Source: Verrucomicrobiota bacterium
GTDB lineage: Bacteria; Verrucomicrobiota; Verrucomicrobiia; Limisphaerales; Palsa-1400
Reading direction: 5' to 3'
Assembly: GCA_050011995.1 (NCBI GenBank)
Contig: JBEKIA010000002.1
Location: 486-64,485 of the forward strand
Length of the DNA: 64,000 nucleotides
The translations under genes and the position numbers were made by a program. This document shows positions 37,085 through 53,262 of this stretch, in pieces. Each line of letters begins with the position of its first letter. Position 1 is the first letter of the stretch. The notes beneath the pieces were generated by a model. That model did not search any database. It worked only from the letters and a program-made list of their open reading frames with translations, and was not told where the DNA came from.

Positions 37085-37172
37085 CGTGTCACCCCCTCCG
37101 GTCGCGACTTTTCCATGCCGAAATGTTGTCGGCGCGTGCCAAAGTTGATCGAGCCTCAGCCGGAATTCGCGG

Positions 37173-37200
37173 TTGACTTCCGGGCGGGATTCCTTATCTT
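37173..37200 (+). promoter_or_regulatory. Putative sigma70-type promoter for vapBC (near-leaderless)
   Basis: TTGACT (37173-37178), 16-nt spacer, TATCTT (37195-37200). The ATG at 37207 lies 6 nt downstream. Confidence 0.4.
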
Positions 37201-37206
37201 GGCTCC

Positions 37207-37440
37207 ATGAGCACGGTTGTTACGGAAGACGGCAAAATCAGTATCCCGCAGGAAGTGCGGGAGGCCCTTGGACTTGGTCCGGGAACCGTGCTCGAAGTGC
37301 AAAGCCAGGCGGGCACCCTCGTCGCGTGGAAAAAAGTGGAGCCGGACGTGTTTGAGAAATGGCGCGGTCGCGGCCAACTGCCCGTCGGAACCGGCCCCGA
37401 CGATTATTTGCGGCTGATTCGCGATGGTGACCGCCGTTGA
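37207..37440 (+). CDS. vapB: AbrB/MazE/SpoVT-fold antitoxin (VapB-type)
   Basis: MSTVVTEDGKISIPQEVREALGLGPGTVLEVQSQAGTLV is the SpoVT-AbrB swapped-hairpin motif. Overlaps the PIN gene by 17 nt. Confidence 0.85.
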   Translation: MSTVVTEDGKISIPQEVREALGLGPGTVLEVQSQAGTLVAWKKVEPDVFEKWRGRGQLPVGTGPDDYLRLIRDGDRR

Positions 37441-37840
37441 CACCTCTGTTCTTCTCGATGTCCTGCTGAACGACCCTCAGCACGCGCCGGCTTCCATTGC
37501 CGCTTTGCGAAGGGGATCAGTGGAAGGTTCGCTTATTCTTTGCGAAATCGTTCTTGCGGAACTCGCGCCCACTTTGGCCCCCGCCGAAATGCCGCAATTT
37601 CTTTCCGACTGGAATCTCACTTTTGTTCCTTCTTCGCAATCAAGCGCTATTCTTGCCGGTGAGATGTTTCGGACCTATTTGCGGCGCGGGGGCAAACGGA
37701 GCCGGGTTGTGCCCGACTTTCTCCTGGCCGCGCACGCCCAAATTCATGCCCAACGCCTCCTCGCTTGAGACCGCGGCTATTACCGGGATTACTTCAAGCA
37801 ACTGCAACTCTGGGACCCCAGCCCCAGCCCTAGCTCCTGA
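37424..37840 (+). pseudogene. vapC: PIN-domain VapC toxin interrupted by an in-frame TGA at 37766-37768
   Basis: MVTAVDTSVLLDVL...LAELA...VPDFLLAAHAQIHAQRLLA-[TGA]-DRGYYRDYFKQLQLWDP. The stop sits where VapC homologues have the Arg of the conserved LL(T)RD motif (CGA->TGA is one transition). The same frame continues to TGA 37838-37840. Confidence 0.7.
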
Positions 37841-43493: not shown

Positions 43494-44510
43494 ATGAAAT
43501 TTGTGCCTTACTGTGTCGTGGGATTTGTGTTGTCTGGAATAGCCGCGCCCGCGGCCGTGACGGATGATGTTTACGAGCTGGGACCTGATTCGCAACGTCA
43601 TGCCGGGGTGCCGCAGGGCAAAGTCATCGGGCCGGCCAGCCTGCCCAGCAACATCTTCACCAACACCACCCGCAACTACTGGGTCTATGTCCCGGCCCAA
43701 TATGATCCTGCCCAGCCGGCGTGCCTGATGATCTTTGAGGACGGACACGCCTACGTGGGGACCAACGGCGAGTTCCGCATTCCGTATGTTTTTGACAACC
43801 TGATTTACCGCCGCGAAATGCCGGTAACCATCGCGGTCTTTGTCAATCCCGGCCACCATCCCGGCCAGCCGGAACCCACCGACGCCGATTGGGGCGACGG
43901 GAGCGGAAACCGCCGTCTGGAATACAACGCCCTGGACGACAAGTATGCCCGGTTCACCATTGATGAATTGATGCCGGTCATCACCCAGCAGTACAACATT
44001 TCCCCGGACCCGGAAAACCACGCCATCGCCGGGGCCAGTTCCGGGGCGATCTGCGCTTTCACGGTGGCCTGGCAGCGGCCGGACCAGTTTCGCAAAGTCA
44101 TCAGTTCCATCGGCAGCTTCACCGCCATCATGGGCGGGGACGCCTATCCGGACATCATCCGCACCAATGAAGCCAAGCCCATCCGCATTTTCCTGGCGGA
44201 CGGCATCAACGACAACCGCGGCGTGGGCCGGGCCGGAGGCGCTTACAGTCCGGGCCGGGACTGGCATGGGCAGAATATCCGTATGGTGGAGGCGTTGACG
44301 GCGAAGAAATACGACGTGAACTACGCTTGGGGACTCGGCACCCACTCCCACAAGCAGGCCGGCGCGATCATGCCCGAAATGCTGCGCTGGCTTTGGCGGG
44401 ATTATCCGCGCCACGACGATCCCCAGGATGCGGGCAATCGCTCCTTTTTTGTCCCGGCGGGCGCGCCGTCTCCGGCGGCGAATCCTCCAGCGGCGAATTC
44501 CCCGCGTTAA
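43494..44510 (+). CDS. Secreted esterase (esterase D / enterochelin-esterase-like alpha/beta hydrolase)
   Basis: Signal peptide. YWVYVPAQYDP..., nucleophile elbow IAGASSGAICAF (GxSxG), THSHKQ near the C-terminus. Confidence 0.8.
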   Translation: MKFVPYCVVGFVLSGIAAPAAVTDDVYELGPDSQRHAGVPQGKVIGPASLPSNIFTNTTRNYWVYVPAQYDPAQPACLMIFEDGHAYVGTNGEFRIPYVFDNLIYRREMPVTIAVFVNPGHHPGQPEPTDADWGDGSGNRRLEYNALDDKYARFTIDELMPVITQQYNISPDPENHAIAGASSGAICAFTVAWQRPDQFRKVISSIGSFTAIMGGDAYPDIIRTNEAKPIRIFLADGINDNRGVGRAGGAYSPGRDWHGQNIRMVEALTAKKYDVNYAWGLGTHSHKQAGAIMPEMLRWLWRDYPRHDDPQDAGNRSFFVPAGAPSPAANPPAANSPR

Positions 44511-44637
44511 ACAGTCTTGGCTGGCAGGCAGACGTGCGTAAGAGGATTCCCCGGCTCCGTTGTGAATTTCCAAAGCCGTGAGCGAAACGGAGCATTTGGG
44601 CTGGCCGCCCTCATAGGGGAAAGGGGCGCTAACTGGA

Positions 44638-45024
44638 ATGGTCGCCGAATGGACGCAGGAGGAACCAACTGAAAACGGAACGGACAAACTCAAAGCTTTC
44701 AAGGGGATATGCGGGCCGGTGGGACTTGCAGGCGAACGGAATGAAGGGCGATTCGACTATTTAGCCGTCCAAGTCAGGTATGGCGCAGGCTATGGAGGCC
44801 CCGAAAGTTTTCAGGGGTGCAGCGGGGGAGGGCTGTGGCACGCCCTATTGAAGGAAAAAGACGGAGAGGTTGTCATCGACAGATTGGCGTTGGCGGGAGT
44901 TGCATTTTATCAATCCGCAATCGAAGGCGATTGCAGGACGATTGAATGCCACGGTGAGAGAAGCATTTATGGGCCTGTGATTGACGCACTTGAGCGCCGG
45001 AAAGCCGGAACGTCCGGGGGCTGA
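44638..45024 (+). pseudogene. Trypsin-fold serine protease C-terminal fragment (probable remnant)
   Basis: 128-aa ORF with FQGCSGGGLW (GxSGG catalytic-Ser motif) but no His/Asp half. Another frame just upstream (44512-44640) reads VRGFPGSVVNFQ..FGLAALIGERGANW, suggesting a frameshifted, 5'-truncated gene that starts at the esterase stop. Confidence 0.4.
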
Positions 45025-45038
45025 TAGGAAGTCACTGA

Positions 45039-45284
45039 ATGATGTGGGGAGGGGCCTTGGAGCAAAAGAATGGCGCAAAGATTTACGGGCCGCTCTGTTT
45101 TCAGAAGGCTTTCTCTCCCGAAACAAGAGCACGGTTAATGCAGATCATGCAAAAACTGTTTGAGCACCCACTGTGGGTTCACGAACCCATACAAGATGAA
45201 ATTGCCAAGGCAAACGATGTGCAAGTGGTCGGCAACATCTTTAAACGCGAGAATCTTGATTACATATTCTTGACGCGACTGTGA
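45039..45284 (+). CDS. Hypothetical protein
   Basis: 81-aa ORF with ordinary composition (..LMQIMQKLFEHPLWVHEPIQDEIAKANDVQVVGNIFKRENLDYIF). No family recognised. Confidence 0.35.
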   Translation: MMWGGALEQKNGAKIYGPLCFQKAFSPETRARLMQIMQKLFEHPLWVHEPIQDEIAKANDVQVVGNIFKRENLDYIFLTRL

Positions 45285-45329
45285 AAGGAAAGGTCCGTTG
45301 TGTAGCGGCGTGACGATGAACTGATATCG

Positions 45330-46175
45330 TCAGGCAACTGGATGCCTCGCCATTTCGTCGGCCAATTCGCTGGAGAATTTGTTGGCCTCCTGTTCGGAGA
45401 TGAAATCCTTTTTGACCGGCATCTTGTGCAGGATGTTCAATGCCTTGCCGTAAGCGGGCCTTAGCCTCTCAATGCGCGGCTCACCAATCAGCATCCAAAT
45501 CCGAAACTTCTCCTCGGAATCCTTGAGGTTGGTCGCACGTCCGAGCCAGCGGTTCGCCTTATCGAGAATGCTTTCGGAGTCCAGGAGGTCCAGCGAAATG
45601 GGCTGGTACAAATTCCAAGTGGCATTACGCCAAGCGTGGTCAAATTCGTGGTCATAGTCTTTTGCCATAATGCGCTTGGGTTGCATCCGGGACAAAACCT
45701 GCTTCGATTCCAGTTCCTTGCGAAACACCTTCCAAACATCGTCGTCCTGACGGCTCGGCAACTGTTCCCGTTGCTCATATTTTTCCACCAGCCTGACATA
45801 AAGTTGTTCCAGGGTCGCTGCCGGGTCTTCCGTGAGCCCCCCGTTTGGTTCTGCCCATTGCAGCGCGCTGTCGTCGCGCGGCAGAATGCTGTACGCGATT
45901 TCCATTATGCTCTTGGGCTGTTCTGCAAGCGGCAATTCGCTGGTAATCCTCGATGCATGCTCCTCAAACCGCGCCTGAATATACCGCATGACCGAGCGCA
46001 AATGGTCCCCGTTCACGTCAAGGAACATCTTGCTCAAGCGGCCATAGCGCGGATTGCAGATGGCGCTGATGTATTTGGCTTCCGGCGCGTAAAGCGCGAC
46101 ACCCATGTTCACGAACTCGCCCGTGGCGATGTCGTGGACGTATCGGAGAACGGTGTAGGTAAATGTCGTTTTCAT
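45330..46175 (-). CDS. DUF3037 domain-containing protein
   Basis: N-terminus MKTTFTYTVLRYVHDIATGEFVNMGVALYAP matches the DUF3037 hallmark (Y.VLRYV.D...GE.VN.GV.L). Its ATG overlaps the upstream stop (ATGA). Confidence 0.8.
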   Translation of the reverse strand: MKTTFTYTVLRYVHDIATGEFVNMGVALYAPEAKYISAICNPRYGRLSKMFLDVNGDHLRSVMRYIQARFEEHASRITSELPLAEQPKSIMEIAYSILPRDDSALQWAEPNGGLTEDPAATLEQLYVRLVEKYEQREQLPSRQDDDVWKVFRKELESKQVLSRMQPKRIMAKDYDHEFDHAWRNATWNLYQPISLDLLDSESILDKANRWLGRATNLKDSEEKFRIWMLIGEPRIERLRPAYGKALNILHKMPVKKDFISEQEANKFSSELADEMARHPVA

Positions 46176-46969
46176 TGCAACAGGTGTTCAATTACCCCGA
46201 ACAATGCCGTGCGATTTTGCCGTGCTTTTCGCAGATAATCGGCAATTTGTTGGGCTGCTTTGCTGTCTGTACGCCATTCATTCGGCACGGCTTCAATATA
46301 CTCATCCAAACGGGCATCCGTCAAAGCATCCAACGCCCCGGTCAACCGGCTCCAATCGTGCTTGAGGCCGGCCAACTGCTGGAAAAAGACGTGTTGGCGC
46401 AGGAATTCCGTGCCCTGGCCAGTCCAGGGCGGCTGCCAGCCAATGACGCCCATCAAAAAGGAAAATGCCTGTTCATGGTCGCACAGGAAAATCTCGTCGT
46501 CGCTCCACAACAGATTCGGGTTGTCCCACCGCCGGTCTGGATTTTGAATCAACACGTCAAAGGCGAAAATCTCGGCGGCGAGCGGGCGAAGCAGAACCGG
46601 AATCGGTTTGTCCCTGGGCCATGTGCCGACACCTGCCGGGAGCTTCTGGCTGCCGAAATTCAACCCGGCGCTCTTCCTGGCGATTGCCGAAAGCTCCGCC
46701 TTTCCTTCGCCAACAATGAATTTTTGGGGAACTTCGACGATGAACGGTTTTGGGACAGGCAAATCGAGGTCATTGGCCAGCAGGGCCGCCATGAGTTCGC
46801 AAATCAGCCCGGTTTCTTTCGTCTCCATTCCGCCGCGCCATTTAATCACTACTTCACAATCGTTGCCGCGGGCGTTGGTGCAAAGCATAAGACAAGGTCT
46901 TGTCCGGCCCGATGATAAGGCTCGCAATACCGTGGCCGCTTGGATTCGTGGAATATGGATCGCGCTCAT
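46172..46969 (-). CDS. HipA-like (HipA_2-type) serine/threonine kinase family protein
   Basis: FAFDVLIQNPDRRWDNPNLLW...IFLCDHEQAFSF resembles the catalytic D..N / DH loop of short HipA-family kinases, which are commonly paired with DUF3037. Confidence 0.7.
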   Translation of the reverse strand: MSAIHIPRIQAATVLRALSSGRTRPCLMLCTNARGNDCEVVIKWRGGMETKETGLICELMAALLANDLDLPVPKPFIVEVPQKFIVGEGKAELSAIARKSAGLNFGSQKLPAGVGTWPRDKPIPVLLRPLAAEIFAFDVLIQNPDRRWDNPNLLWSDDEIFLCDHEQAFSFLMGVIGWQPPWTGQGTEFLRQHVFFQQLAGLKHDWSRLTGALDALTDARLDEYIEAVPNEWRTDSKAAQQIADYLRKARQNRTALFGVIEHLLQ

Positions 46970-47106
46970 GGGTTGACCTGGCTGGCTCGCCGATTTAGGA
47001 GGGCGAGCAGTTGGCCGTAACCAGTGTAAAATATCAGGCGAACAGCCTTCTCGAAAAGTTCTGGTTTGAAGTCCTTTGGGTCGTAGCTACCGAGTAGTTC
47101 TGGCAT
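46966..47106 (-). CDS. Small ORF (46 aa) translationally coupled to the HipA-like gene
   Basis: Below the ORF-track cutoff. My own translation: MPELLGSYDPKDFKPELFEKAVRLIFYTGYGQLLALLNRRASQVNP*. Its TGA overlaps the HipA-like ATG (ATGA). No obvious SD. Confidence 0.3.
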   Translation of the reverse strand: MPELLGSYDPKDFKPELFEKAVRLIFYTGYGQLLALLNRRASQVNP

Positions 47107-47452
47107 AATCCGTGGGGATGATTGGCGATATTCCGGAAGGTTGCACTAAAAAACGATGGGTGTGCGAGGTTCGACGGGACGGTTTGGTGGGGAAATCGCT
47201 GGCATGTCGGCTGTGGGGCGACGGTGTTTGGGCGCAACTCAGGCGATTTGCCCATAATGAAGCGCAGCGAAATAACCCCAATCTGGTCGGGACGCGGGGC
47301 CGCCATATTCTGACTTCTGACGGCCGTGTGCCCGCTCGCAACGACCGTGGTGCGAGCAGTTCCTCTCCCAATGCCCGACGGCGGGCAATCCCGGCCTGCC
47401 GGTACCCTGCCTTTTCCCGTTCCACCCAACAGTGGCGCATCACTGATTATCT

Positions 47453-47497
47453 AAAAAAACACCGCTTTCCGCGCCGGTCGGCGGAAAGCGGCTTTTG
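47453..47497 (-). terminator. Bidirectional rho-independent terminator (stronger on the minus strand)
   Basis: ccgctttccgc (47462-47472) pairs with gcggaaagcgg (47481-47491), an 11-bp perfect stem. The minus strand reads a T7 run after it (plus-strand aaaaaaa at 47453-47459). The plus strand has tttt at 47493-47496. It lies about 70 nt downstream of the DUF1552 stop. Confidence 0.7.
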
Positions 47498-47527
47498 ACG
47501 CGCCCCTTTTCGGGCGCATCACGCCAA

Positions 47528-47554
47528 CGCCGGCAAAGCATGTCCGGCGTTTTT
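47528..47554 (+). terminator. Plus-strand terminator-like hairpin
   Basis: cgccgg-caaagcatgt-ccggcg followed by ttttt. No plus-strand gene lies upstream within about 2 kb. Confidence 0.4.
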
Positions 47555-47562
47555 GTTCCAAA

Positions 47563-48960
47563 TCAAACCCCTGCCAGGCGGCCGGTGGAATCGCCGTGTC
47601 TTTCGATTCCCTCGACTCCCATCTTGTCCGCCATGCTGAGAAACAGGTTGGTCAGGGGCGTCGGCTCGGTCTTGAGGTAGCGGCCCGTCTGGAGTCTTCC
47701 GCCGGCGGAACCGGCCACCAGAATCGGCAGGTTGACGTGAGTATGGCGGTTGCCATCGGCATTGCCCGACCCGTAAAGGATCATGGAGTTGTGGAGCAAA
47801 GATTGGCCGTCCACGTCCTGGGTCTGATCCATTTTTTCCAGGAATCTTCCGAGTTGCTGCGCATACCACAAATCAATCTGCTTGACCTTGGCGATGATGT
47901 CCGGCTGGTTTCTGTGGTGGGTGAGGTTATGGTGGCCTTCCGAAATCCCGATTTGGGAAAACGGGCGGTTGCTGCCTTCGCCGGCGATCAGGAGGGTGGC
48001 CACGCGGGTGGAATCGGTCTGAAAGGCCAGCAGCAGCATGTCGAACATCAACTGAATATGCTCGGCGAAGTCCGAGGGGATGCCAGGAGGAGTGTCTTGG
48101 GTCGGGTTGGCCACGGCCATGCTCTCGGTCCTCTGGATGCGCTGCTCGATCTCGCGCACGCTGGTCAGATATTGATCCAGCTTCGCCCGGTCGCGTCCGT
48201 TCATGTTTCCCTCCATCGCCATGGCGTCCGTCAGGACATAATCCAGAATGGATTGCTGCTCTTTTTGGCGCCGTTGCAGGTTGGCGGTCCGCTGGTTGGG
48301 AGGGCCGTCGCCGAACAGGCGCTCAAAGACTTGGCGCGGATTGGGATCGGGCATCACCGGCTGGGTGGGCGAGCGCCAGGCCAAATTATACTCGTAGGCG
48401 CAGGAATAGCCCGAATCGCAATCCCCCGCTTTGCGCACCGCGTCGCAGGTCAGTTCCAGGGAAGGAAAGCGCGTCTGGTGGCCGATCCGCTGGGCGATCA
48501 CCTGGTCGAAGGAAACGCCCGCGAAAATGTCCGACCCGGCGGTTTTTTTGATCCGCACTCCGGTGAGGAAAGTGCCGCCCGCGCGAGCATGGTCGCCGCC
48601 GCCGTCCATTCCGGCATTGGCGCTGAGGTCTTCCAAGCCGGAAATGACCTGCACCTCTTTTTTGACTTTTTGCAGCGGCTGCAAGGTGGGCGACAGTTGG
48701 AAATCGGTTCCCCCGTCGCCCTCCGGCCACCACCCCGCCGGGATGATCCCGTTGGGCACGTAGAGAAAGGCCATCCGGACCGGGGCGGCTTTGCCCGCGC
48801 CCCGGACCACCGCATCCGCCGGGCTTGCCAGAAGGCTCAAAGGGGTAAGGGACTCAAAGGCCGGCAGGGCAATGCAAATGCCCAGCCCGCGCAGAAACCG
48901 GCGGCGGCTCAGATTGATGCGGCGTTCGGCGGCGGTGTTTTGATGCTTGGGTATATTCAT
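47563..48960 (-). CDS. DUF1552 domain-containing protein
   Basis: ORF 47563..49209 trimmed to ATG 48960. MNIPKHQNTAAERRINLSRRRFLRGLGICIALPAFESL is the hallmark Tat-like N-terminus of DUF1552 proteins. It is paired with a DUF1592-type gene upstream. Confidence 0.9.
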   Translation of the reverse strand: MNIPKHQNTAAERRINLSRRRFLRGLGICIALPAFESLTPLSLLASPADAVVRGAGKAAPVRMAFLYVPNGIIPAGWWPEGDGGTDFQLSPTLQPLQKVKKEVQVISGLEDLSANAGMDGGGDHARAGGTFLTGVRIKKTAGSDIFAGVSFDQVIAQRIGHQTRFPSLELTCDAVRKAGDCDSGYSCAYEYNLAWRSPTQPVMPDPNPRQVFERLFGDGPPNQRTANLQRRQKEQQSILDYVLTDAMAMEGNMNGRDRAKLDQYLTSVREIEQRIQRTESMAVANPTQDTPPGIPSDFAEHIQLMFDMLLLAFQTDSTRVATLLIAGEGSNRPFSQIGISEGHHNLTHHRNQPDIIAKVKQIDLWYAQQLGRFLEKMDQTQDVDGQSLLHNSMILYGSGNADGNRHTHVNLPILVAGSAGGRLQTGRYLKTEPTPLTNLFLSMADKMGVEGIERHGDSTGRLAGV

Positions 48961-48974
48961 GGTGTGAACTTTGT

Positions 48975-51698
48975 TTAGTTGCTCTCGTTGACAGTAACAC
49001 TTCTGGAAGGTTGGGACGCGTCGGAAAGGGTTGCGTTGGCCTGGCGCCGCTCTTTTTGGAACGGAGCGGACTCGATGATGCCCGTCAATAGCGCGGAAAA
49101 CCGGCCATCCTCCGCCTGCAGCCGCTGGACGATCTGATCCACCGTTTCGGTGTCGTAGTATTCCATGCCGCGGCCCGTGGCGTAAGTGAGCATCTTTTCT
49201 GTCAGGCAACGGTAGAACTCGTCACGATGGTTGGTGGCCAAAATGTGCTTCAACTCGCGGACGTTCTGGAAAGTTTCGCCGCTGATCAAACGGCCCGCCG
49301 CCTCGATCGTCTGGCTGCGTTCCTGGTCGCGCCACAGGCCCAGGGCGTTGAAATTCTCGAAGGCCAGGCCGACCGGGTCCAGGCGCGAGTGGCAGGAAGC
49401 GCACTCAGGCTTGTCGCGGTGCGCTGTCAGTGTCTCGCGCAAAGTCGGCTCATGGTCGTGAAAATCCTTCTCCGCCGCTTCCAGCGCCGGGACGTTGGGC
49501 GGCGGGGGCGGCGGGGCGGCGCCCAAAATGTTGTTGAGGACAAACAGGCCGCGCTTCACCGGCGAGGTTCGATCCGGGTTGGAGGTGACCACCAGCACGG
49601 TGCCCTCCGTCAGCACTCCGCCCCGCGGGCTGTCCGGCGGCAGGGTGACGCGGCGCATCTCGGTCCCGGTCACACCCAGGTTGGTCAGCCCGTAAGCGGC
49701 GGCCAGTTTCTGGTTGAGGAATGTGTAGTCGCTCTCAATCAACTCCAGGATGCTGCGGTCTTCATGGACGATGGTGGAAAAGACCATCTCCGTCTCGCGC
49801 TCCATGTCGTGCCGCAGCTCCGCGTTCAGCTCAATGGGAGGCTTGGCGAATCTTCCGTTGACATTGTTGGGGTTGAGGTTAGCGGGCTTTGGGGCAGCTT
49901 GGGCCAACTGGGCGGGTTTCCCCGGAGCATTGGTCGGCGCGGACAACCCGGCTTGCGCCAAAAGAGCGTTCGTGACCGACGAATTAGTCGGGCGCGCTTG
50001 CGGGGCCGGCTCCGGTTTGTTCAGGCCAAAGCTGGCGATCAGCGCCTTCAATTGCTTCTCCTCGCCCTTGTCTCTGGCAAGAACCGCCCGCGCGTCAATG
50101 GTGATGCCTTCCACGTCGCGCGCCTGCAGCCATTGGCCGGTAAAATTATCCACCATCGCTTCGGAACGCGAGTCCGCCAGCATGCGCTTGACCTGGGCCG
50201 GCAGGTTCTTGCGCAATTCTCCCTTCGCGGCCAGAGCGAACAACTCCTCGTCCGGCATGGAAGACCACAGGAAGTAGGACAACCGCGAAGCCAGCGAGTA
50301 TTCATCCACCAACGGGTAGGCTTCGCTCGATGAAGCCGGTTCGGCTTCCTCCGTTTGGAACAGAAACCGCGGCGAAGACAGCACCGCCACCATGGCGTGC
50401 CCCACGCCCGCCTGGAGAGTCTTGCCCGGCTGATCGTAAACGCCCTGGGCCAGCGCCACCAAACGATCCAGCGTCTGGTCATCCACCGGACGCCGGAAGG
50501 CTTTCTGCGCGAAGCGGGCCAGGACTTCCCGCGCGTATTGCCGGCGGCCGGAATCGTCTTGGGGCGCATCCCCGGCAAAGAACCGGTCGTAATTCTTTGG
50601 CCGGCTCCAATACTTTTCCTCCATCGGCCCTTGAATGGCCAGGGAGTCAATCCGCAATTCCACGGAGTTGATCTTCTGGTCCTCCGGCGTCAGAGGTTGC
50701 AGCTCAAAGCTCATCTGATGCGCGCCCGGCTGCCATTTCTCCTCGAATTGAAAAGGTGGAAACGTCTTATTGTCCTCCCAGGCAAATTCCTTGTTCAGCA
50801 ATTCCCGCCCATCCACCTTGAAAATGGCGCGGCACTTGCCTGGATCGAACTCAAAACTGGCGCGGACCGACAACTCCAAAGCCAACTGGTAAGTCCCGTC
50901 GTTCTCCGCGTTGAAAGAGGCGGCGACCTCCGCCGGCTGGTAATAGGACAAACTCAGCAGGGTGTCGCGCTGGTTCCCGCCCCGATTGCCGGCCCGGGCG
51001 CCCTGGCCTCGCCGGCCACCCCGGTCGGCGTTGTCCGCATTGGTCCCAACCGGGCGGAACCGGCTGCCGGCCAGCGTGGTTTGCGGGATCACCCGCGAAA
51101 CCTTCGGCACGGCTTCCTCCACAATGGCGGTGGCCGCGATCATGTATTTTTCCAGCAGCATGGGCGACAACGTGAGAACATCGCCGATATTGTCAAACCC
51201 GTAACCCGTGTCGTCCGGCGGAAATTCCTCATCGGTGTTGTAATCCACCCCCATCAAATCTCGTATGGTATTGTGGTACTCCACCCGGTTCAGCCGGCGC
51301 AGCGTCACCCGGCCCGGATCGGGATTCTTGGGATCAATTCCGAACGCCTCGTACTTGACCCAATCCTCCAGGACCTTTCGATCCGCGGCGCCGGGATGCG
51401 GCGCTTTCTGCGGCGGCATGATGCCGGTGCGCAGGTTTTTCATGACCTTGCTCCACAGGTCGTGGTTGAGGATCTCGTCGCCGGATTTCAACCCGTCAAA
51501 GGCCACGCCGCCATTGCTCATCCCGTCGCCGTGACACTCGTAACAATACTGCTCCAAGATGGGTTGGACGCTCTGGTGAAATTGCGCCACTCCCGCCGGT
51601 TCCGCGGCGCCCGCGCGCGGGTTTTGCGACGCGAAAATCATCGCTCCCGCCAGCCAGGGCCAAAGGGCCAGACGGCTTATGGGTTTTCTTTGCTTCAC
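48975..51698 (-). CDS. DUF1592/DUF1588/DUF1587/DUF1585/DUF1595-type protein with cytochrome-c-like CxxCH motifs
   Basis: CYECHG near the N-terminus and CASCH near the C-terminus. This large multi-DUF architecture is typical of Planctomycetota/Verrucomicrobiota. GTG 51698 gives the signal peptide KQRKPISRLALWPWLAGAMIFAS. Alternative starts are ATG 51782 and ATG 51833. Confidence 0.88.
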   Translation of the reverse strand: MKQRKPISRLALWPWLAGAMIFASQNPRAGAAEPAGVAQFHQSVQPILEQYCYECHGDGMSNGGVAFDGLKSGDEILNHDLWSKVMKNLRTGIMPPQKAPHPGAADRKVLEDWVKYEAFGIDPKNPDPGRVTLRRLNRVEYHNTIRDLMGVDYNTDEEFPPDDTGYGFDNIGDVLTLSPMLLEKYMIAATAIVEEAVPKVSRVIPQTTLAGSRFRPVGTNADNADRGGRRGQGARAGNRGGNQRDTLLSLSYYQPAEVAASFNAENDGTYQLALELSVRASFEFDPGKCRAIFKVDGRELLNKEFAWEDNKTFPPFQFEEKWQPGAHQMSFELQPLTPEDQKINSVELRIDSLAIQGPMEEKYWSRPKNYDRFFAGDAPQDDSGRRQYAREVLARFAQKAFRRPVDDQTLDRLVALAQGVYDQPGKTLQAGVGHAMVAVLSSPRFLFQTEEAEPASSSEAYPLVDEYSLASRLSYFLWSSMPDEELFALAAKGELRKNLPAQVKRMLADSRSEAMVDNFTGQWLQARDVEGITIDARAVLARDKGEEKQLKALIASFGLNKPEPAPQARPTNSSVTNALLAQAGLSAPTNAPGKPAQLAQAAPKPANLNPNNVNGRFAKPPIELNAELRHDMERETEMVFSTIVHEDRSILELIESDYTFLNQKLAAAYGLTNLGVTGTEMRRVTLPPDSPRGGVLTEGTVLVVTSNPDRTSPVKRGLFVLNNILGAAPPPPPPNVPALEAAEKDFHDHEPTLRETLTAHRDKPECASCHSRLDPVGLAFENFNALGLWRDQERSQTIEAAGRLISGETFQNVRELKHILATNHRDEFYRCLTEKMLTYATGRGMEYYDTETVDQIVQRLQAEDGRFSALLTGIIESAPFQKERRQANATLSDASQPSRSVTVNESN

Positions 51699-51971
51699 GT
51701 AAAACAAGTTATGAGTTATTTGTAAAAAGCTTCTTTTGCCGTTTTTTGCTCCTCCAGGAGCAAACCGCTCCAGGGGGTTCATTTTCTCGAAATATAGCCG
51801 TTCACCAGAATTAGTCAAGCGCCTTTTTGACATTTCTTGAGCTTATCTGGCCCTTTTTTGCTCAAGCCGCAAACGGCGCAAGACATCCATTGCTCTTTGG
51901 ATGGCAGTTTTTGTGGCAGAAAGCAATCCGGTGATGAGGGGCGCGGCGCATTGATTACAATTGTTGTAACC

Positions 51972-52010
51972 TCGGCGCTGTGCGCCGATGTCGAGCCACA
52001 GGCTCGATTC
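51972..52010. repeat. Dispersed hairpin element, family C (copy 3, inverted)
   Basis: tcggcgctgtgcgccgatgtcgagccacaggctcgattc is the reverse complement of the C2-type sequence, with few mismatches. It abuts the AT-rich integrase promoter region. Confidence 0.85.
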
Positions 52011-52104
52011 ACCATTCTTAGGACATTGATTTACAGATATTTGCGATTTTCTGAAAGATTTTTCTTGAGCTTTCCATTCTTACTTTTATTCTTACCGTCA
52101 ATTT

Positions 52105-53262
52105 ATGGCAAGTGTCACCAAACATCCGAAATCGCGGTTCTGGACGGCCTGCTTCTCCGGCCGCGACGGCCGACAGATGAAACGGTCGGCCAAGACCACC
52201 GACCGCAACGCCGCGCTCGAAATCGCCTTGGAACTGGAGCGGGTGGAGCGGCAGGCCAAGGCGGGCGCACTCACCACCAATCAACTGCGCAAGGTTCTAA
52301 ACGATGTTTCGGAAAAGGTCAACGGCGATACGCTCGCGACGCCTCCGGTCGAGGAATATCTCACAGATTGGCTCAAAAGCATCGCCGCCCGCAATTCGCC
52401 CTCAACGCACGAGCGATACCGCCACACGGTCGAACTCTTTGTGGCGCGGCTCGACGGCAGAGCCAAGAAGCCCATCACCTCGGTCATGCCAAAGGACATC
52501 GAGGATTTCCTGACATGGCGGCTGAATACCGGCGTTGCGCCCAAGACCGCCATCGTGGATTTGAAGACCTTGAACACCGCCTTTCGCCGCGCGGAAGTGT
52601 TCGGAACGATATTGAAGAATCCGGTCGCGGCCATCCGTCCGCCGAAATTGGAATCCTCGGAGCGGGAAGTCTTCACGCCGGAAGAGGTGAAGAGGCTCTT
52701 GGATGCCGCGCCGTCTTTGGAATGGCAGACGCTGATTCTCATGGGGTATTTCACAGGAGCCCGCTTGGGCGACTGCGTGTCCCTCAAGTGGGAGAACGTC
52801 AACCCGGAGCACGGAGCCATCATATACAGCCAGCAGAAAACGGGCAAGAAAGTCATCGTGCCCATGCACTTCCATGTGATCGAGCATGTGAAGTATCTCT
52901 CCACCTTCGGCACCAAGGGGTATCTCTGCCCGAAATTGGCCGCTATGGGTTCGGGCGGCAAGCAGGGGCTTTCCCAAGGATTCATGCGCATACTGAAGAC
53001 GGCGGGCATTGACCCCATGACCGTCGAGGGCAAGGGCGTGCGGAAGTTCGCCAAGCGCTCGTTCCATTCCCTGCGGCACAGTTTCAACTCAGCGCTGGCC
53101 AACGCCGGCGTGGCGGAGGAGATCCGCATGAAGCTGACCGGCCATTCCTCCAAGGCCATGAACGACCGCTATACGCATCTCCAAGTAGCCGCGCTCAAGA
53201 ACGCCGTGACCGCGCTGCCGCTTTTTAGCGCGGAGAGGGAGGGCCAGCCGCGCGGGGCTTAA
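52105..53262 (+). CDS. Tyrosine-type site-specific integrase
   Basis: N-terminal SAM-like domain. Catalytic residues in GARLGDC (Arg), HSLRHSF (H-x-x-R) and GHSSKAMNDRYTH (His...Tyr). Confidence 0.93.
   Translation: MASVTKHPKSRFWTACFSGRDGRQMKRSAKTTDRNAALEIALELERVERQAKAGALTTNQLRKVLNDVSEKVNGDTLATPPVEEYLTDWLKSIAARNSPSTHERYRHTVELFVARLDGRAKKPITSVMPKDIEDFLTWRLNTGVAPKTAIVDLKTLNTAFRRAEVFGTILKNPVAAIRPPKLESSEREVFTPEEVKRLLDAAPSLEWQTLILMGYFTGARLGDCVSLKWENVNPEHGAIIYSQQKTGKKVIVPMHFHVIEHVKYLSTFGTKGYLCPKLAAMGSGGKQGLSQGFMRILKTAGIDPMTVEGKGVRKFAKRSFHSLRHSFNSALANAGVAEEIRMKLTGHSSKAMNDRYTHLQVAALKNAVTALPLFSAEREGQPRGA

What the first reader, a model, noticed from the sequence alone, without database searches (positions are those of the whole stretch)
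44512..47106. AT-richer islet with a coupled 46-aa ORF / HipA-like kinase / DUF3037 operon next to a decayed trypsin-fold protease gene
On the minus strand, three ORFs are chained by ATGA overlaps: 47106->46966 (46 aa, below the ORF-track cutoff), 46969->46172 (HipA-like kinase with QNPDRRWDNPN and CDHEQAF motifs) and 46175->45330 (DUF3037, N-terminus TVLRYVHDIATGEFVNMGV). The HipA-like/DUF3037 pairing recurs in genomes but has, to my knowledge, no demonstrated function. The kinase suggests a toxin- or abortive-infection-like module. Facing it are a GxSGG protease C-terminal fragment that begins right at the esterase stop codon, with signs of a frameshift, and an 81-aa ORF. The composition change starts exactly at 44511 and ends at a terminator cluster (47453-47554).
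Basis: partly seen in the sequence, partly recalled or inferred. Interest (0 to 1): 0.55.

Follow-up and report, generated by a model that had tools for sequence, protein, structure and literature searches.

The report
Known HipA-kinase/DUF3037 phage-defence pair
This is an intact copy of a two-gene kinase/DUF3037 module already shown in E. coli to defend against phage; the extra 46-aa ORF is a leftover tail of a lost ATPase gene, and the neighbouring "decayed protease" is not supported.

Summary
The minus-strand ORFs, their ATGA overlaps and the quoted motifs are all present. The 265-aa protein is a HipA_2 kinase and the 281-aa protein is a DUF3037 protein. Together they match PADLOC candidate PDC-M66A/B almost end to end. 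They are homologous to E. coli DS-6/HipAD, which has been shown to defend against phage: defence needs the kinase, and deleting DUF3037 is toxic. The catalytic Asp mutated in DS-6A (D139A) corresponds to the invariant D145 here. A predicted structure supports the kinase fold. The pair is adjacent in 74 of 85 homologous loci, and dN/dS is 0.11-0.18. So the pairing is real, but its function is no longer undemonstrated.

The 46-aa ORF is not a conserved third gene. It is absent from all 85 homologous loci and matches only the last ~45 residues of a 625-aa SMC/ABC ATPase from a helicase-methylase-ATPase defence operon. It is best read as a scar of earlier embedding. In other genomes the cassette often sits inside type I R-M or SIR2 operons.

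The "decayed protease" is a complete 128-aa ORF of unknown function with one same-length homologue; no protease family or frameshift is supported. The AT-richer islet (about 44539-47570) is real and lineage-specific.

Verdict: a new member of a known kind, of modest interest.

The parts
46172..46969 (-). HipA_2-family Ser/Thr-type kinase (265 aa), the effector or toxin of the pair (PDC-M66A / DS-6A / HipAD kinase homologue)
   Evidence: Pfam HipA_2 E=2.6e-24. PADLOC PDC-M66A E=1.7e-68 over residues 4-264. hhalign to DS-6A gives probability 97.2%, E=4e-11. K43, E58, N143, D145, R146, N152, D164 and H165 are invariant in 28-37 homologues. D145 corresponds to DS-6A D139. The AF2 model has pLDDT 90, and Foldseek matches kinases PI4KIIa, CtkA, RIO and VPS34 at probability 0.97-1.00. 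dN/dS is 0.12-0.18.
45330..46175 (-). DUF3037 protein (281 aa), the partner that neutralises the kinase and probably senses infection; N-terminal DUF3037 domain (residues 7-130) plus a C-terminal restriction-endonuclease-like domain (about 144-277)
   Evidence: Pfam DUF3037 E=1.1e-18. PADLOC PDC-M66B E=1.2e-82 over residues 3-278. hhalign to DS-6B gives probability 94.8%, E=5.5e-8 over 206 columns. The AF2 model has pLDDT 77.7, and the C-domain topology is a-b-b-b-a-b-a-b-a. The best Foldseek hits are weak (E about 0.02) but are PD-(D/E)xK-fold proteins: Cdn1, XisH-like 2okf, AF1548, FokI, Cap4. dN/dS is 0.11-0.12.
46966..47106 (-). 46-aa ORF: vestigial C-terminal tail of a lost SMC/ABC-type defence ATPase, fused to a start codon supplied by the upstream conserved block; not a family component
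   Evidence: No tblastn hit in any of 85 homologous loci. DNA homology of the cassette stops 7-11 nt upstream of the kinase ATG. Exhaustive phmmer finds only itself, two short fragments, and residues 577-619 of the 625-aa ATPase P0126. tblastn of that ATPase against the window hits only 47109->46975, E=5e-9. Homology to L001 ends right after codon 3.
47098..47227 (-). About 130-nt non-coding block, 90% identical to a block upstream of the cassette in the closest relative L001; candidate promoter or leader, function untested
   Evidence: blastn and alignment. Single copy in the window. No Rfam family. Folds no better than shuffled sequence, z=0.19. No sigma-70-like site was called in it.
47451..47492 (-). 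Intrinsic terminator of the upstream DUF1552/PSD operon; it marks the islet border and insulates the cassette from read-through
   Evidence: 12-bp stem with 8 G-C pairs, followed by a T-run; inverted repeat I4.
44638..45024 (+). 128-aa ORF of unknown function (invariant GCSGGG motif), convergent with the cassette; complete, not a protease fragment; not part of the defence pair
   Evidence: Only homologues are an identical copy and P0122 (125 aa, 50% identity, same start and end). No hit in Pfam, NCBIfam, PADLOC, PHROGs, PDB sequences or viral contigs. Absent from all 85 cassette loci.
45039..45284 (+). 81-aa ORF of unknown status, directly after the 128-aa ORF; no evidence links it to the pair
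   Evidence: No significant family hit. Absent from the 85 cassette loci and from 79 esterase loci of other lineages. Some gene callers call it and some do not, on identical DNA.

Best explanation
The locus carries an intact, stand-alone copy of the two-gene HipA_2-kinase/DUF3037 anti-phage system, known as PADLOC candidate PDC-M66 and, in E. coli, as DS-6 or HipAD.

Proposed mechanism:
1. The two overlapping genes are co-translated, which yields a kinase held inactive by the DUF3037 protein.
2. On infection the restraint is lost. The likely route is the DUF3037 protein's C-terminal nuclease-like domain meeting a phage cue, or turnover of the partner.
3. The freed kinase phosphorylates an essential target, growth or translation stops, and the infection aborts.

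What is shown and what is inferred:
- Shown here: family membership, a conserved catalytic set, kinase fold, tight pairing, purifying selection.
- Shown elsewhere for homologues: the kinase is required for defence, and loss of DUF3037 is toxic.
- Inferred: that this copy is expressed and active, the trigger, the substrate, and the abortive outcome.

The 46-aa ORF is a scar, the C-terminal tail of an SMC/ABC ATPase from a helicase-methylase-ATPase defence operon in which the cassette was probably once embedded. The 128-aa and 81-aa ORFs are unrelated neighbours inside the same lineage-specific islet.
For: - Family: HipA_2 and DUF3037; PDC-M66A/B at E=1.7e-68 and 1.2e-82, near full length; PHROG families for both proteins.
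- Homology to the validated pair: DS-6A probability 97.2%, DS-6B probability 94.8%. DS-6 has the same gene order and the same 4-nt overlap.
- Catalysis: DS-6A D139, whose D139A mutant loses defence, aligns with the invariant D145.
- Fold: kinase model pLDDT 90, all top Foldseek hits are kinases.
- Pairing: the kinase lies directly upstream of DUF3037 in 74 of 85 loci across many phyla, mostly with 4-nt or 1-nt overlaps.
- Unit of inheritance: DNA homology at 85-93% identity covers only 46976-45325.
- Selection: dN/dS 0.11-0.18.
- Experiments on homologues: PMC12548924 and PMC13092281.
- Defence context elsewhere: the upstream coupled gene is a type I specificity subunit in 20 loci, and is SIR2, N6 methylase or ResIII in others.
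- ATPase-tail origin of the 46-aa ORF.
Against: - No experiment exists for this organism or this subfamily. Identity to the tested E. coli proteins is low (34% over 151 aligned kinase columns, 21% for DUF3037).
- No promoter was identified. The host operon the cassette was probably embedded in is gone, so expression is unproven.
- No relative was found in the phage collection by tblastn.
- The C-terminal nuclease-like fold rests on weak Foldseek scores (E about 0.02).
- The acidic and Lys residues conserved in the close family do not appear conserved in DS-6B. A sensing or DNA-binding role is therefore only a guess.
- The kinase substrate is unknown for the whole family.
Confidence: 0.8

Rival explanations
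1. A three-gene system in which the 46-aa ORF is a functional third component, for example a small antitoxin, chaperone or leader peptide, translationally coupled to the kinase.
For: A real ATGA overlap with the kinase start. The ORF is identical in all strains of this species. In other loci the kinase start is also coupled to whatever ORF lies upstream, so translation of an upstream ORF might help kinase expression.
Against: Absent from all 85 homologous loci, including L001 whose cassette is 93% identical. The ORF is a chimera of 3 codons from a conserved non-coding block plus the last ~43 codons of an ATPase. The validated DS-6 and Sda1 systems need only two genes. The strains are 99.9% identical, so they give no evidence of constraint.
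Confidence: 0.05
2. A plain addiction (toxin-antitoxin) module that stabilises the islet or survives selfishly, with no role in phage defence in this host.
For: TA-like genetics in homologues, since deleting DUF3037 is toxic. The window copy stands alone and is not inside a defence island. The only other TA-like genes seen are a MazE/PIN pair about 7 kb away.
Against: Homologues defend against phage in two independent studies. The cassette sits inside R-M, SIR2 and helicase operons in many genomes, and here it lies next to the remnant of a defence ATPase. That is the genomic signature of defence cargo.
Confidence: 0.1
3. A stranded, silent remnant: when the surrounding defence operon was deleted the pair lost its promoter and is on its way to decay.
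For: The ATPase upstream is reduced to 46 codons and no other gene of that operon remains in the window. A strong terminator lies upstream. No sigma-70-like promoter was detected upstream of the kinase.
Against: Both ORFs are full length with every invariant residue intact. dN/dS is 0.11-0.18. A 130-nt upstream block is conserved at 90% with L001 and could carry a promoter. The promoter scan is a crude E. coli-type consensus.
Confidence: 0.1
4. The roles are reversed: the DUF3037 protein's nuclease-like C-terminal domain is the killing effector and the kinase regulates it.
For: The best structural matches of the DUF3037 protein are PD-(D/E)xK nucleases. DS-6B has a weak HHpred match to DUF1829, which belongs to the PDDEXK clan. 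E177, H180, D196 and K206 are invariant in the close family.
Against: In the Sda1 operon, deleting DUF3037 is toxic and deleting the kinase abolishes defence. A kinase catalytic mutant loses defence. The candidate acidic and Lys residues are not conserved in DS-6B. The Foldseek scores are weak.
Confidence: 0.05

Closest known systems
DS-6 / HipAD (E. coli; DefensePredictor, PMC13092281; Brenes & Laub 2025 as cited there) and the HipA/DUF3037 pair in the Retron-Sda1 operon (PMC12548924); PADLOC candidate PDC-M66
   Same: Same two families, same order (kinase first), same 4-nt overlap, similar sizes (249/275 aa against 265/281 aa). The catalytic Asp is conserved. The partner has an N-terminal DUF3037 domain and a PDDEXK-like C-terminal half. 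Full-length matches to both PDC-M66 models.
   Different: The subfamily is distant from the tested E. coli proteins (34% over 151 aligned kinase columns, 21% for DUF3037) and comes from a Verrucomicrobiota-type environmental genome. It is untested. It stands alone beside a vestigial ATPase tail, not in a prophage or retron operon.
Canonical HipBA and HipBST toxin-antitoxin systems (E. coli HipA phosphorylates GltX, as described in PMC13092281)
   Same: A HipA-related kinase acts as a growth-arresting toxin neutralised by a co-encoded protein. The catalytic-loop logic is the same (Asp and Asn in the loop, a second Mg-binding Asp).
   Different: There is no HipB-type HTH antitoxin. Gene order is reversed, with the toxin first. 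The kinase is much shorter than canonical HipA (from my own knowledge about 440 aa; not tested here) and has no significant match to the Pfam HipA N-terminal or HipA_C models. It shows no sequence-level match to any solved structure. The partner is an unrelated two-domain DUF3037 protein.
Defence genes embedded in Hma, type I R-M, BREX and DISARM operons ('guilt by embedding', Payne et al. 2024, doi 10.1101/2024.01.29.577857)
   Same: In 20 or more loci the cassette follows hsdS with overlapping stop and start codons. In others it follows SIR2, a methylase or a ResIII helicase. Here it follows the last 43 codons of an ATPase whose intact homologue sits in a helicase/AbiD/type IIG methylase/ATPase operon.
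   Different: In the window the host operon has been lost, so the cassette is no longer embedded. That paper does not mention HipA, DUF3037 or PDC-M66. The intact ATPase's listed top PADLOC hits are mad3, LmuB and PtuA, not an Hma ATPase model, so I call the operon Hma-like by architecture only.

Membership tests
HipAD / DS-6 / PDC-M66 two-gene defence system | Component A is a HipA_2-family kinase | tested here: met
   Pfam HipA_2 at 86.2 bits against a cut-off of 27. PDC-M66A E=1.7e-68. hhalign to DS-6A probability 97.2%. Kinase fold found by Foldseek.
HipAD / DS-6 / PDC-M66 two-gene defence system | Component B is a protein of about 275-285 aa with an N-terminal DUF3037 domain and a C-terminal PDDEXK-like half | tested here: met
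   Pfam DUF3037 at 68 bits against a cut-off of 22.6. PDC-M66B E=1.2e-82 over residues 3-278. hhalign to DS-6B probability 94.8% over 206 columns. The nuclease-like fold of the C-terminal half is only weakly supported. No Pfam DUF1829 hit in 23 family members; in DS-6B itself that assignment is only 78% HHpred probability.
HipAD / DS-6 / PDC-M66 two-gene defence system | Kinase gene immediately upstream of the DUF3037 gene, same strand, overlapping or abutting | tested here: met
   4-nt ATGA overlap in the window. The same holds in DS-6 (coordinates). A strong kinase hit lies directly upstream in 74 of 85 loci, with 4-nt or 1-nt overlaps in most.
HipAD / DS-6 / PDC-M66 two-gene defence system | Catalytic Asp of the kinase (DS-6A D139) present | tested here: met
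   D139 in 'LNADR' aligns with window D145 in 'QNPDR'. It is invariant in alignments A3 and A4.
HipAD / DS-6 / PDC-M66 two-gene defence system | Protects against phage; the kinase alone is toxic and DUF3037 neutralises it | not testable with these tools
   Shown only for homologues. Needs cloning and phage challenge.
Canonical HipBA type II toxin-antitoxin | HTH (HipB-type) antitoxin encoded upstream of the kinase | tested here: not met
   The ORF upstream of the kinase is a 46-aa ATPase remnant with no family hit. The partner lies downstream and is a DUF3037 protein.
Canonical HipBA type II toxin-antitoxin | Full-length HipA with HipA N-terminal (Couple_hipA/HipA_N) and HipA_C domains | tested here: not met
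   Only HipA_2 passes in Pfam. The protein is 265 aa. Neither the sequence nor the profile matches any solved HipA chain.
Trypsin-like serine protease (for the 128-aa ORF at 44638-45024) | Match to a trypsin/S1-type family model with the His-Asp-Ser triad | tested here: not met
   No Pfam, NCBIfam, PHROG or PADLOC hit at E<=1. The profile against PDB sequences finds no protease. The ORF is 128 aa with a same-length homologue, too short for a two-barrel protease.
Hma (helicase-methylase-ATPase) system, for the operon holding the intact relative of the 46-aa ORF | Helicase, methylase and ATPase genes in one operon that match the Hma models | tested here: inconclusive
   L094 has a PLDc_2/SNF2 helicase, AbiD, an Eco57I/N6 methylase and the ATPase in one co-directional, overlapping array. 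In PADLOC the ATPase's top 25 of 30 listed hits are led by mad3, LmuB and PtuA, and the methylase's by type IIG models, with no Hma model among those listed.

The most novel reading that the evidence does not exclude
The DUF3037 protein may be a portable sensor or regulator module that can be wired to different effectors. Among close DUF3037 homologues that lack the kinase, the gene directly upstream is a TIR_2 protein (L043), a HIRAN protein (L039, L045; L045 also has a faint HipA N-terminal-domain match), a HerA helicase (L022) or a Schlafen/AlbA_2 protein (L040). If those are true functional partners, DUF3037 would define a new family of phage-sensing adaptors. The window's locus would then be one instance of a broader, uncharacterised sensor-effector logic, and the 1.65-kb cassette with sharp ends would be a unit that is repeatedly pasted after the stop codon of other defence genes by an unknown mechanism.
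Probability: 0.12. Interest if true: 0.6.

Novelty: new member of a known kind. Interest (0 to 1): 0.27.

Why it matters
The locus adds an intact and divergent member of the recently validated HipA-kinase/DUF3037 defence family, from an environmental Verrucomicrobiota-type genome. It shows the family is widespread well outside Enterobacteria.

The more useful by-product is evolutionary. The cassette travels as a sharply bounded 1.65-kb unit. It is usually coupled to the stop codon of another defence gene (hsdS, SIR2, a methylase or an ATPase), and here it keeps a 43-codon scar of its former host gene.

That gives a concrete case for studying how embedded defence cassettes are exchanged and then stranded. 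It also warns annotators that short "coupled" ORFs upstream of such cassettes can be vestiges and not components. The kinase substrate and the trigger remain open for the whole family.

Tried and rejected
- **46-aa ORF as a conserved component:** rejected. tblastn against 85 loci found nothing. DNA homology breaks at the kinase ATG. The exhaustive search points to an ATPase C-terminus.
- **Strain variation as a test of coding constraint on the small ORFs:** uninformative. Eight contigs of the same species are 99.9-100% identical, with five variable sites and none in the small ORFs. The differing gene calls are caller artefacts.
- **The 130-nt conserved upstream block as a structured or known RNA:** no Rfam hit apart from a chance-level one elsewhere, no excess folding energy, no second copy in the window.
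- **Protease identity for the 128-aa ORF:** four HMM libraries, the large protein database, a PDB profile search and a viral-contig scan gave nothing.
- **Sequence-level link from the kinase to solved HipA structures:** none by phmmer or by profile. Resolved by structure prediction and Foldseek instead.
- **Phage collection:** no tblastn hit for the DUF3037 protein. The plasmid collection gave only distant pairs, annotated 'DUF3037 domain-containing protein | HipA family kinase'.
- **Mobile-element signatures for the islet:** no tRNA in the window and no flanking direct or inverted repeats. The nearest integrase ORF (52105-53262) lies beyond two housekeeping-type genes.
- **An exact 'empty site':** not found. 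The closest esterase relative (L102) differs on both sides, and more distant relatives have DUF1552 upstream of the esterase in the other orientation.
- **First kinase structure job:** I redid it with database homologues.
Full report
**1. What is in the sequence**

On the minus strand there are three ORFs: 47106->46966 (46 aa), 46969->46172 (265 aa) and 46175->45330 (281 aa). Both junctions are 4-nt ATGA overlaps.

GC drops from about 0.63 to 0.50-0.57 across roughly 44600-47200 and then recovers. On the plus strand a 128-aa ORF (44638-45024) and an 81-aa ORF (45039-45284) converge on the operon.

**2. Identity of the two large proteins**

The 265-aa protein matches Pfam HipA_2 (E=2.6e-24). 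The 281-aa protein matches DUF3037 over residues 7-130 (E=1.1e-18).

In PADLOC-DB they match PDC-M66A (E=1.7e-68, residues 4-264) and PDC-M66B (E=1.2e-82, residues 3-278). This is one candidate two-gene defence system, matched nearly end to end. Both also hit PHROG families of unknown function. NCBIfam has nothing for either.

**3. The pair already has a demonstrated function**

- PMC12548924 found a HipA-like/DUF3037 pair inside the Retron-Sda1 operon and noted that PADLOC calls it PDC-M66. Defence against phage Bas51 did not need the retron RT, ncRNA or HTH gene. Deleting the kinase abolished defence, and deleting DUF3037 was toxic.
- PMC13092281 validated E. coli DS-6, renamed HipAD, as a defence system (DS-6A kinase plus DS-6B DUF3037 protein). 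A catalytic kinase mutant lost defence. That paper cites an independent discovery by Brenes & Laub 2025, which I could not read.
- From the supplement I took the DS-6A (249 aa) and DS-6B (275 aa) sequences, their coordinates (kinase first, 4-nt overlap) and the mutant D139A.
- Profile comparison shows both window proteins are homologous to the validated pair. The kinase family against DS-6A gives probability 97.2%, E=4e-11. The DUF3037 family against DS-6B gives probability 94.8%, E=5.5e-8 over 206 columns.
- DS-6A D139 lies in 'LNADR' and aligns with window D145 in 'QNPDR'.

**4. Is the window's copy likely to be functional?**

- Kinase alignments of 28 and 37 homologues, down to 36% identity, keep K43, E58, N143, D145, R146, N152, D164 and H165 invariant.
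- Neither the sequence nor a profile reaches any solved HipA chain.
- An AlphaFold model built on 37 homologues is confident (pLDDT 90, pTM 0.90). Every top Foldseek hit in the PDB is a protein-kinase-like enzyme at probability 0.97-1.00: PI4KIIa, H. pylori Ser/Thr kinase CtkA (TM 0.46-0.54), RIO kinases and VPS34.
- Against close relatives, dN/dS is 0.12-0.18 for the kinase and 0.11-0.12 for DUF3037.

**5. The DUF3037 protein**

The model (pLDDT 77.7) has two alpha/beta domains. The C-terminal one (about 144-277) has an a-b-b-b-a-b-a-b-a order.

Foldseek finds no confident PDB match (best E=0.018). The highest-probability hits do share a restriction-endonuclease-like fold: Cdn1, XisH-like 2okf and AF1548 at probability 0.90-0.97, with BspD6I, EcoT38I, FokI and Cap4 lower. 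This agrees with the weak (78%) HHpred match of DS-6B residues 163-260 to DUF1829, a member of the PDDEXK clan.

No member of the close family hits Pfam DUF1829 directly. Residues that are invariant in the close family (E177, H180, D196, K206) do not appear conserved in DS-6B. I therefore favour a non-catalytic binding or sensing role, but this is inference.

**6. Conservation of the pair**

The DUF3037 protein has 623 database homologues at E<=1e-5, mostly 279-282 aa, and the named ones are mostly Verrucomicrobiota.

I collected 85 loci from many phyla. In 74 of them a kinase-HMM hit lies directly upstream on the same strand, one more has a remnant, and 10 have none. Overlaps of 4 nt or 1 nt dominate.

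DNA homology to the closest relatives covers only window 46976-45325: L001 at 93.5%, L002 and L006 at 85%. The unit of inheritance is thus a sharply bounded 1.65-kb two-gene cassette.

**7. The 46-aa ORF**

- It has no tblastn match in any of the 85 loci.
- In L001 the cassette is 93% identical, yet the 121 nt that hold the ORF are replaced by 456 unrelated nt.
- An exhaustive phmmer search of 1.84 billion representatives finds only itself, two short ORFs (59 and 72 aa), and residues 577-619 of a 625-aa protein, P0126.
- P0126 is an SMC/ABC-type ATPase. It lies in a co-directional, overlapping operon: PLDc_2/SNF2 helicase, AbiD, Eco57I/N6 methylase, this ATPase, a 216-aa gene, and a Dsr1-like gene.
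- tblastn of that ATPase against the window hits only 47109->46975 (E=5e-9). No other gene of that operon has a significant match in the window (all other hits E>=0.013).
- In L098 the same tail is followed by a different gene, an HExxH protein.
- The first three codons of the ORF (ATGCCAGAA) are the end of a separate 130-nt block that is 90% identical to L001.

The ORF is therefore a junction product: a borrowed start codon plus the last ~43 codons of an ATPase. I read it as a scar left when the cassette's former host operon was deleted. Whether its translation still helps kinase expression through coupling is untested.

**8. Embedding elsewhere**

The gene coupled to the kinase start in other loci is a type I R-M specificity subunit in a 20-member cluster. 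Examples are L033, PADLOC Specificity_I E=7.8e-75, and Pfam Methylase_S hits.

Other upstream genes are a SIR2 protein in L006, an N6 methylase in L060 and a ResIII helicase in L028. In L001 the cassette is followed by a type I methylase C-terminal fragment.

This matches the 'embedded defence' pattern of Payne et al. 2024, although that paper does not mention this pair.

**9. The plus-strand ORFs**

The 128-aa ORF starts at an ATG 128 nt after the esterase stop. It has only two database matches: an identical copy seen on 24 contigs of the same species, and P0122 (125 aa, 50% identity), which shares the MV(A/G)EWT start, the GCSGGG motif and the C-terminal region.

No library or PDB profile links it to proteases, and the viral-contig scan found nothing. 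It is a complete ORF of unknown function, not a decayed fragment. Its fold could not be tested. The 81-aa ORF has no support beyond being open.

Neither ORF accompanies the cassette elsewhere.

**10. The islet and its borders**

Homology to the closest esterase relative (L102, 90.5%) ends at 44538. Homology of DUF1552 to L103 and L104 ends at 47571.

In L103-L105 the order is PSD > DUF1552 > esterase, adjacent and co-oriented, with none of the islet genes. In the window the esterase and DUF1552 are convergent, with the islet between them. So the islet sits at a rearrangement junction.

A strong intrinsic terminator (47492->47461 plus a T-run, minus strand) ends the DUF1552 operon at the islet edge. 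There are no tRNAs and no bounding repeats. An integrase ORF lies at 52105-53262.

**11. Mechanism and verdict**

Best-supported model: a toxin-antitoxin-like abortive-infection pair. The co-translated DUF3037 protein restrains the kinase, infection relieves the restraint, and the kinase phosphorylates an essential target.

- Shown for homologues: the requirement for the kinase, and toxicity when DUF3037 is missing.
- Shown here: membership, catalytic integrity, fold, pairing, selection.
- Inferred: expression, trigger, substrate, outcome.

The finding is a new member of a known kind.

Noticed in passing
L043:1951-2415; L039:5062-5943; L045:5022-5768; L022:3980-5749; L040:4137-5768; L023:675-1331: In the 10 of 85 loci where a close DUF3037 homologue lacks the kinase, the gene directly upstream is a TIR_2 protein (E=3e-19), HIRAN proteins (one with a faint HipA N-terminal-domain match), a HerA helicase, a Schlafen/AlbA_2-HATPase_c_4 protein or an IS200-like transposase. 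This may mean effector swapping around DUF3037, or it may just reflect defence-island neighbourhoods.
   Followed up: partly
window 47098-47227 (minus strand) and L001:3463-3592: A 130-nt non-coding block is 90% identical between the window and L001. In both it lies upstream of the cassette, but a different gene fragment separates it from the kinase: an ATPase tail here, and in L001 a 126-aa ORF with no family hit that looks by eye like a PLD-helicase N-terminus. No known RNA, no stable fold, single copy. Possibly the promoter or leader of the ancestral host operon.
   Followed up: partly
L094:1-11436: An intact operon of PLDc_2/SNF2 helicase, a 50-aa ORF, AbiD, a type IIG-like Eco57I/N6 methylase, an SMC/ABC ATPase, a 216-aa protein with no hits and a 978-aa Dsr1-like protein, all co-directional with overlapping ends. 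It looks like an Hma-type system carrying two embedded cargoes.
   Followed up: partly
L099:2925-3143 and L098:633-812: Short ORFs (72 and 59 aa) homologous to the same ATPase C-terminal tail occur in other genomes. One lies next to ordinary metabolic genes (4-hydroxyphenylpyruvate-dioxygenase-like, HgmA). The other lies after a frameshifted ATPase body and before an HExxH protein. The tail seems to survive deletions repeatedly.
   Followed up: partly
window 43494-51833 compared with L103-L105: Relatives have PSD > DUF1552 > esterase adjacent and co-oriented. In the window the DUF1552/PSD pair is inverted relative to the esterase, with the 3-kb islet at the junction.
   Followed up: partly
window 52105-53262 (+) and 51600-52200: A tyrosine-recombinase (Phage_integrase) ORF lies just beyond the PSD gene, next to a low-GC patch (0.49-0.53). 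It may mark another mobile segment.
   Followed up: no
window about 37097-37658 (mapped from L086:460-1021): A MazE-like/PIN-domain toxin-antitoxin pair lies about 7 kb from the islet. The Pfam hits are weak and come from the precomputed gene table.
   Followed up: no
window 45311-45332: A 7-bp hairpin (TGACGAT, 8-nt loop, ATCGTCA) overlaps the DUF3037 stop codon between the convergent genes. I read it directly from the sequence. The terminator scan did not call it, because it has no T-run.
   Followed up: no
window 46172-46969: Public gene calls for this kinase often use an internal ATG (238 aa). Conservation of the first 27 residues in relatives shows that the 265-aa start, which overlaps the upstream ORF, is the real one.
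   Followed up: yes
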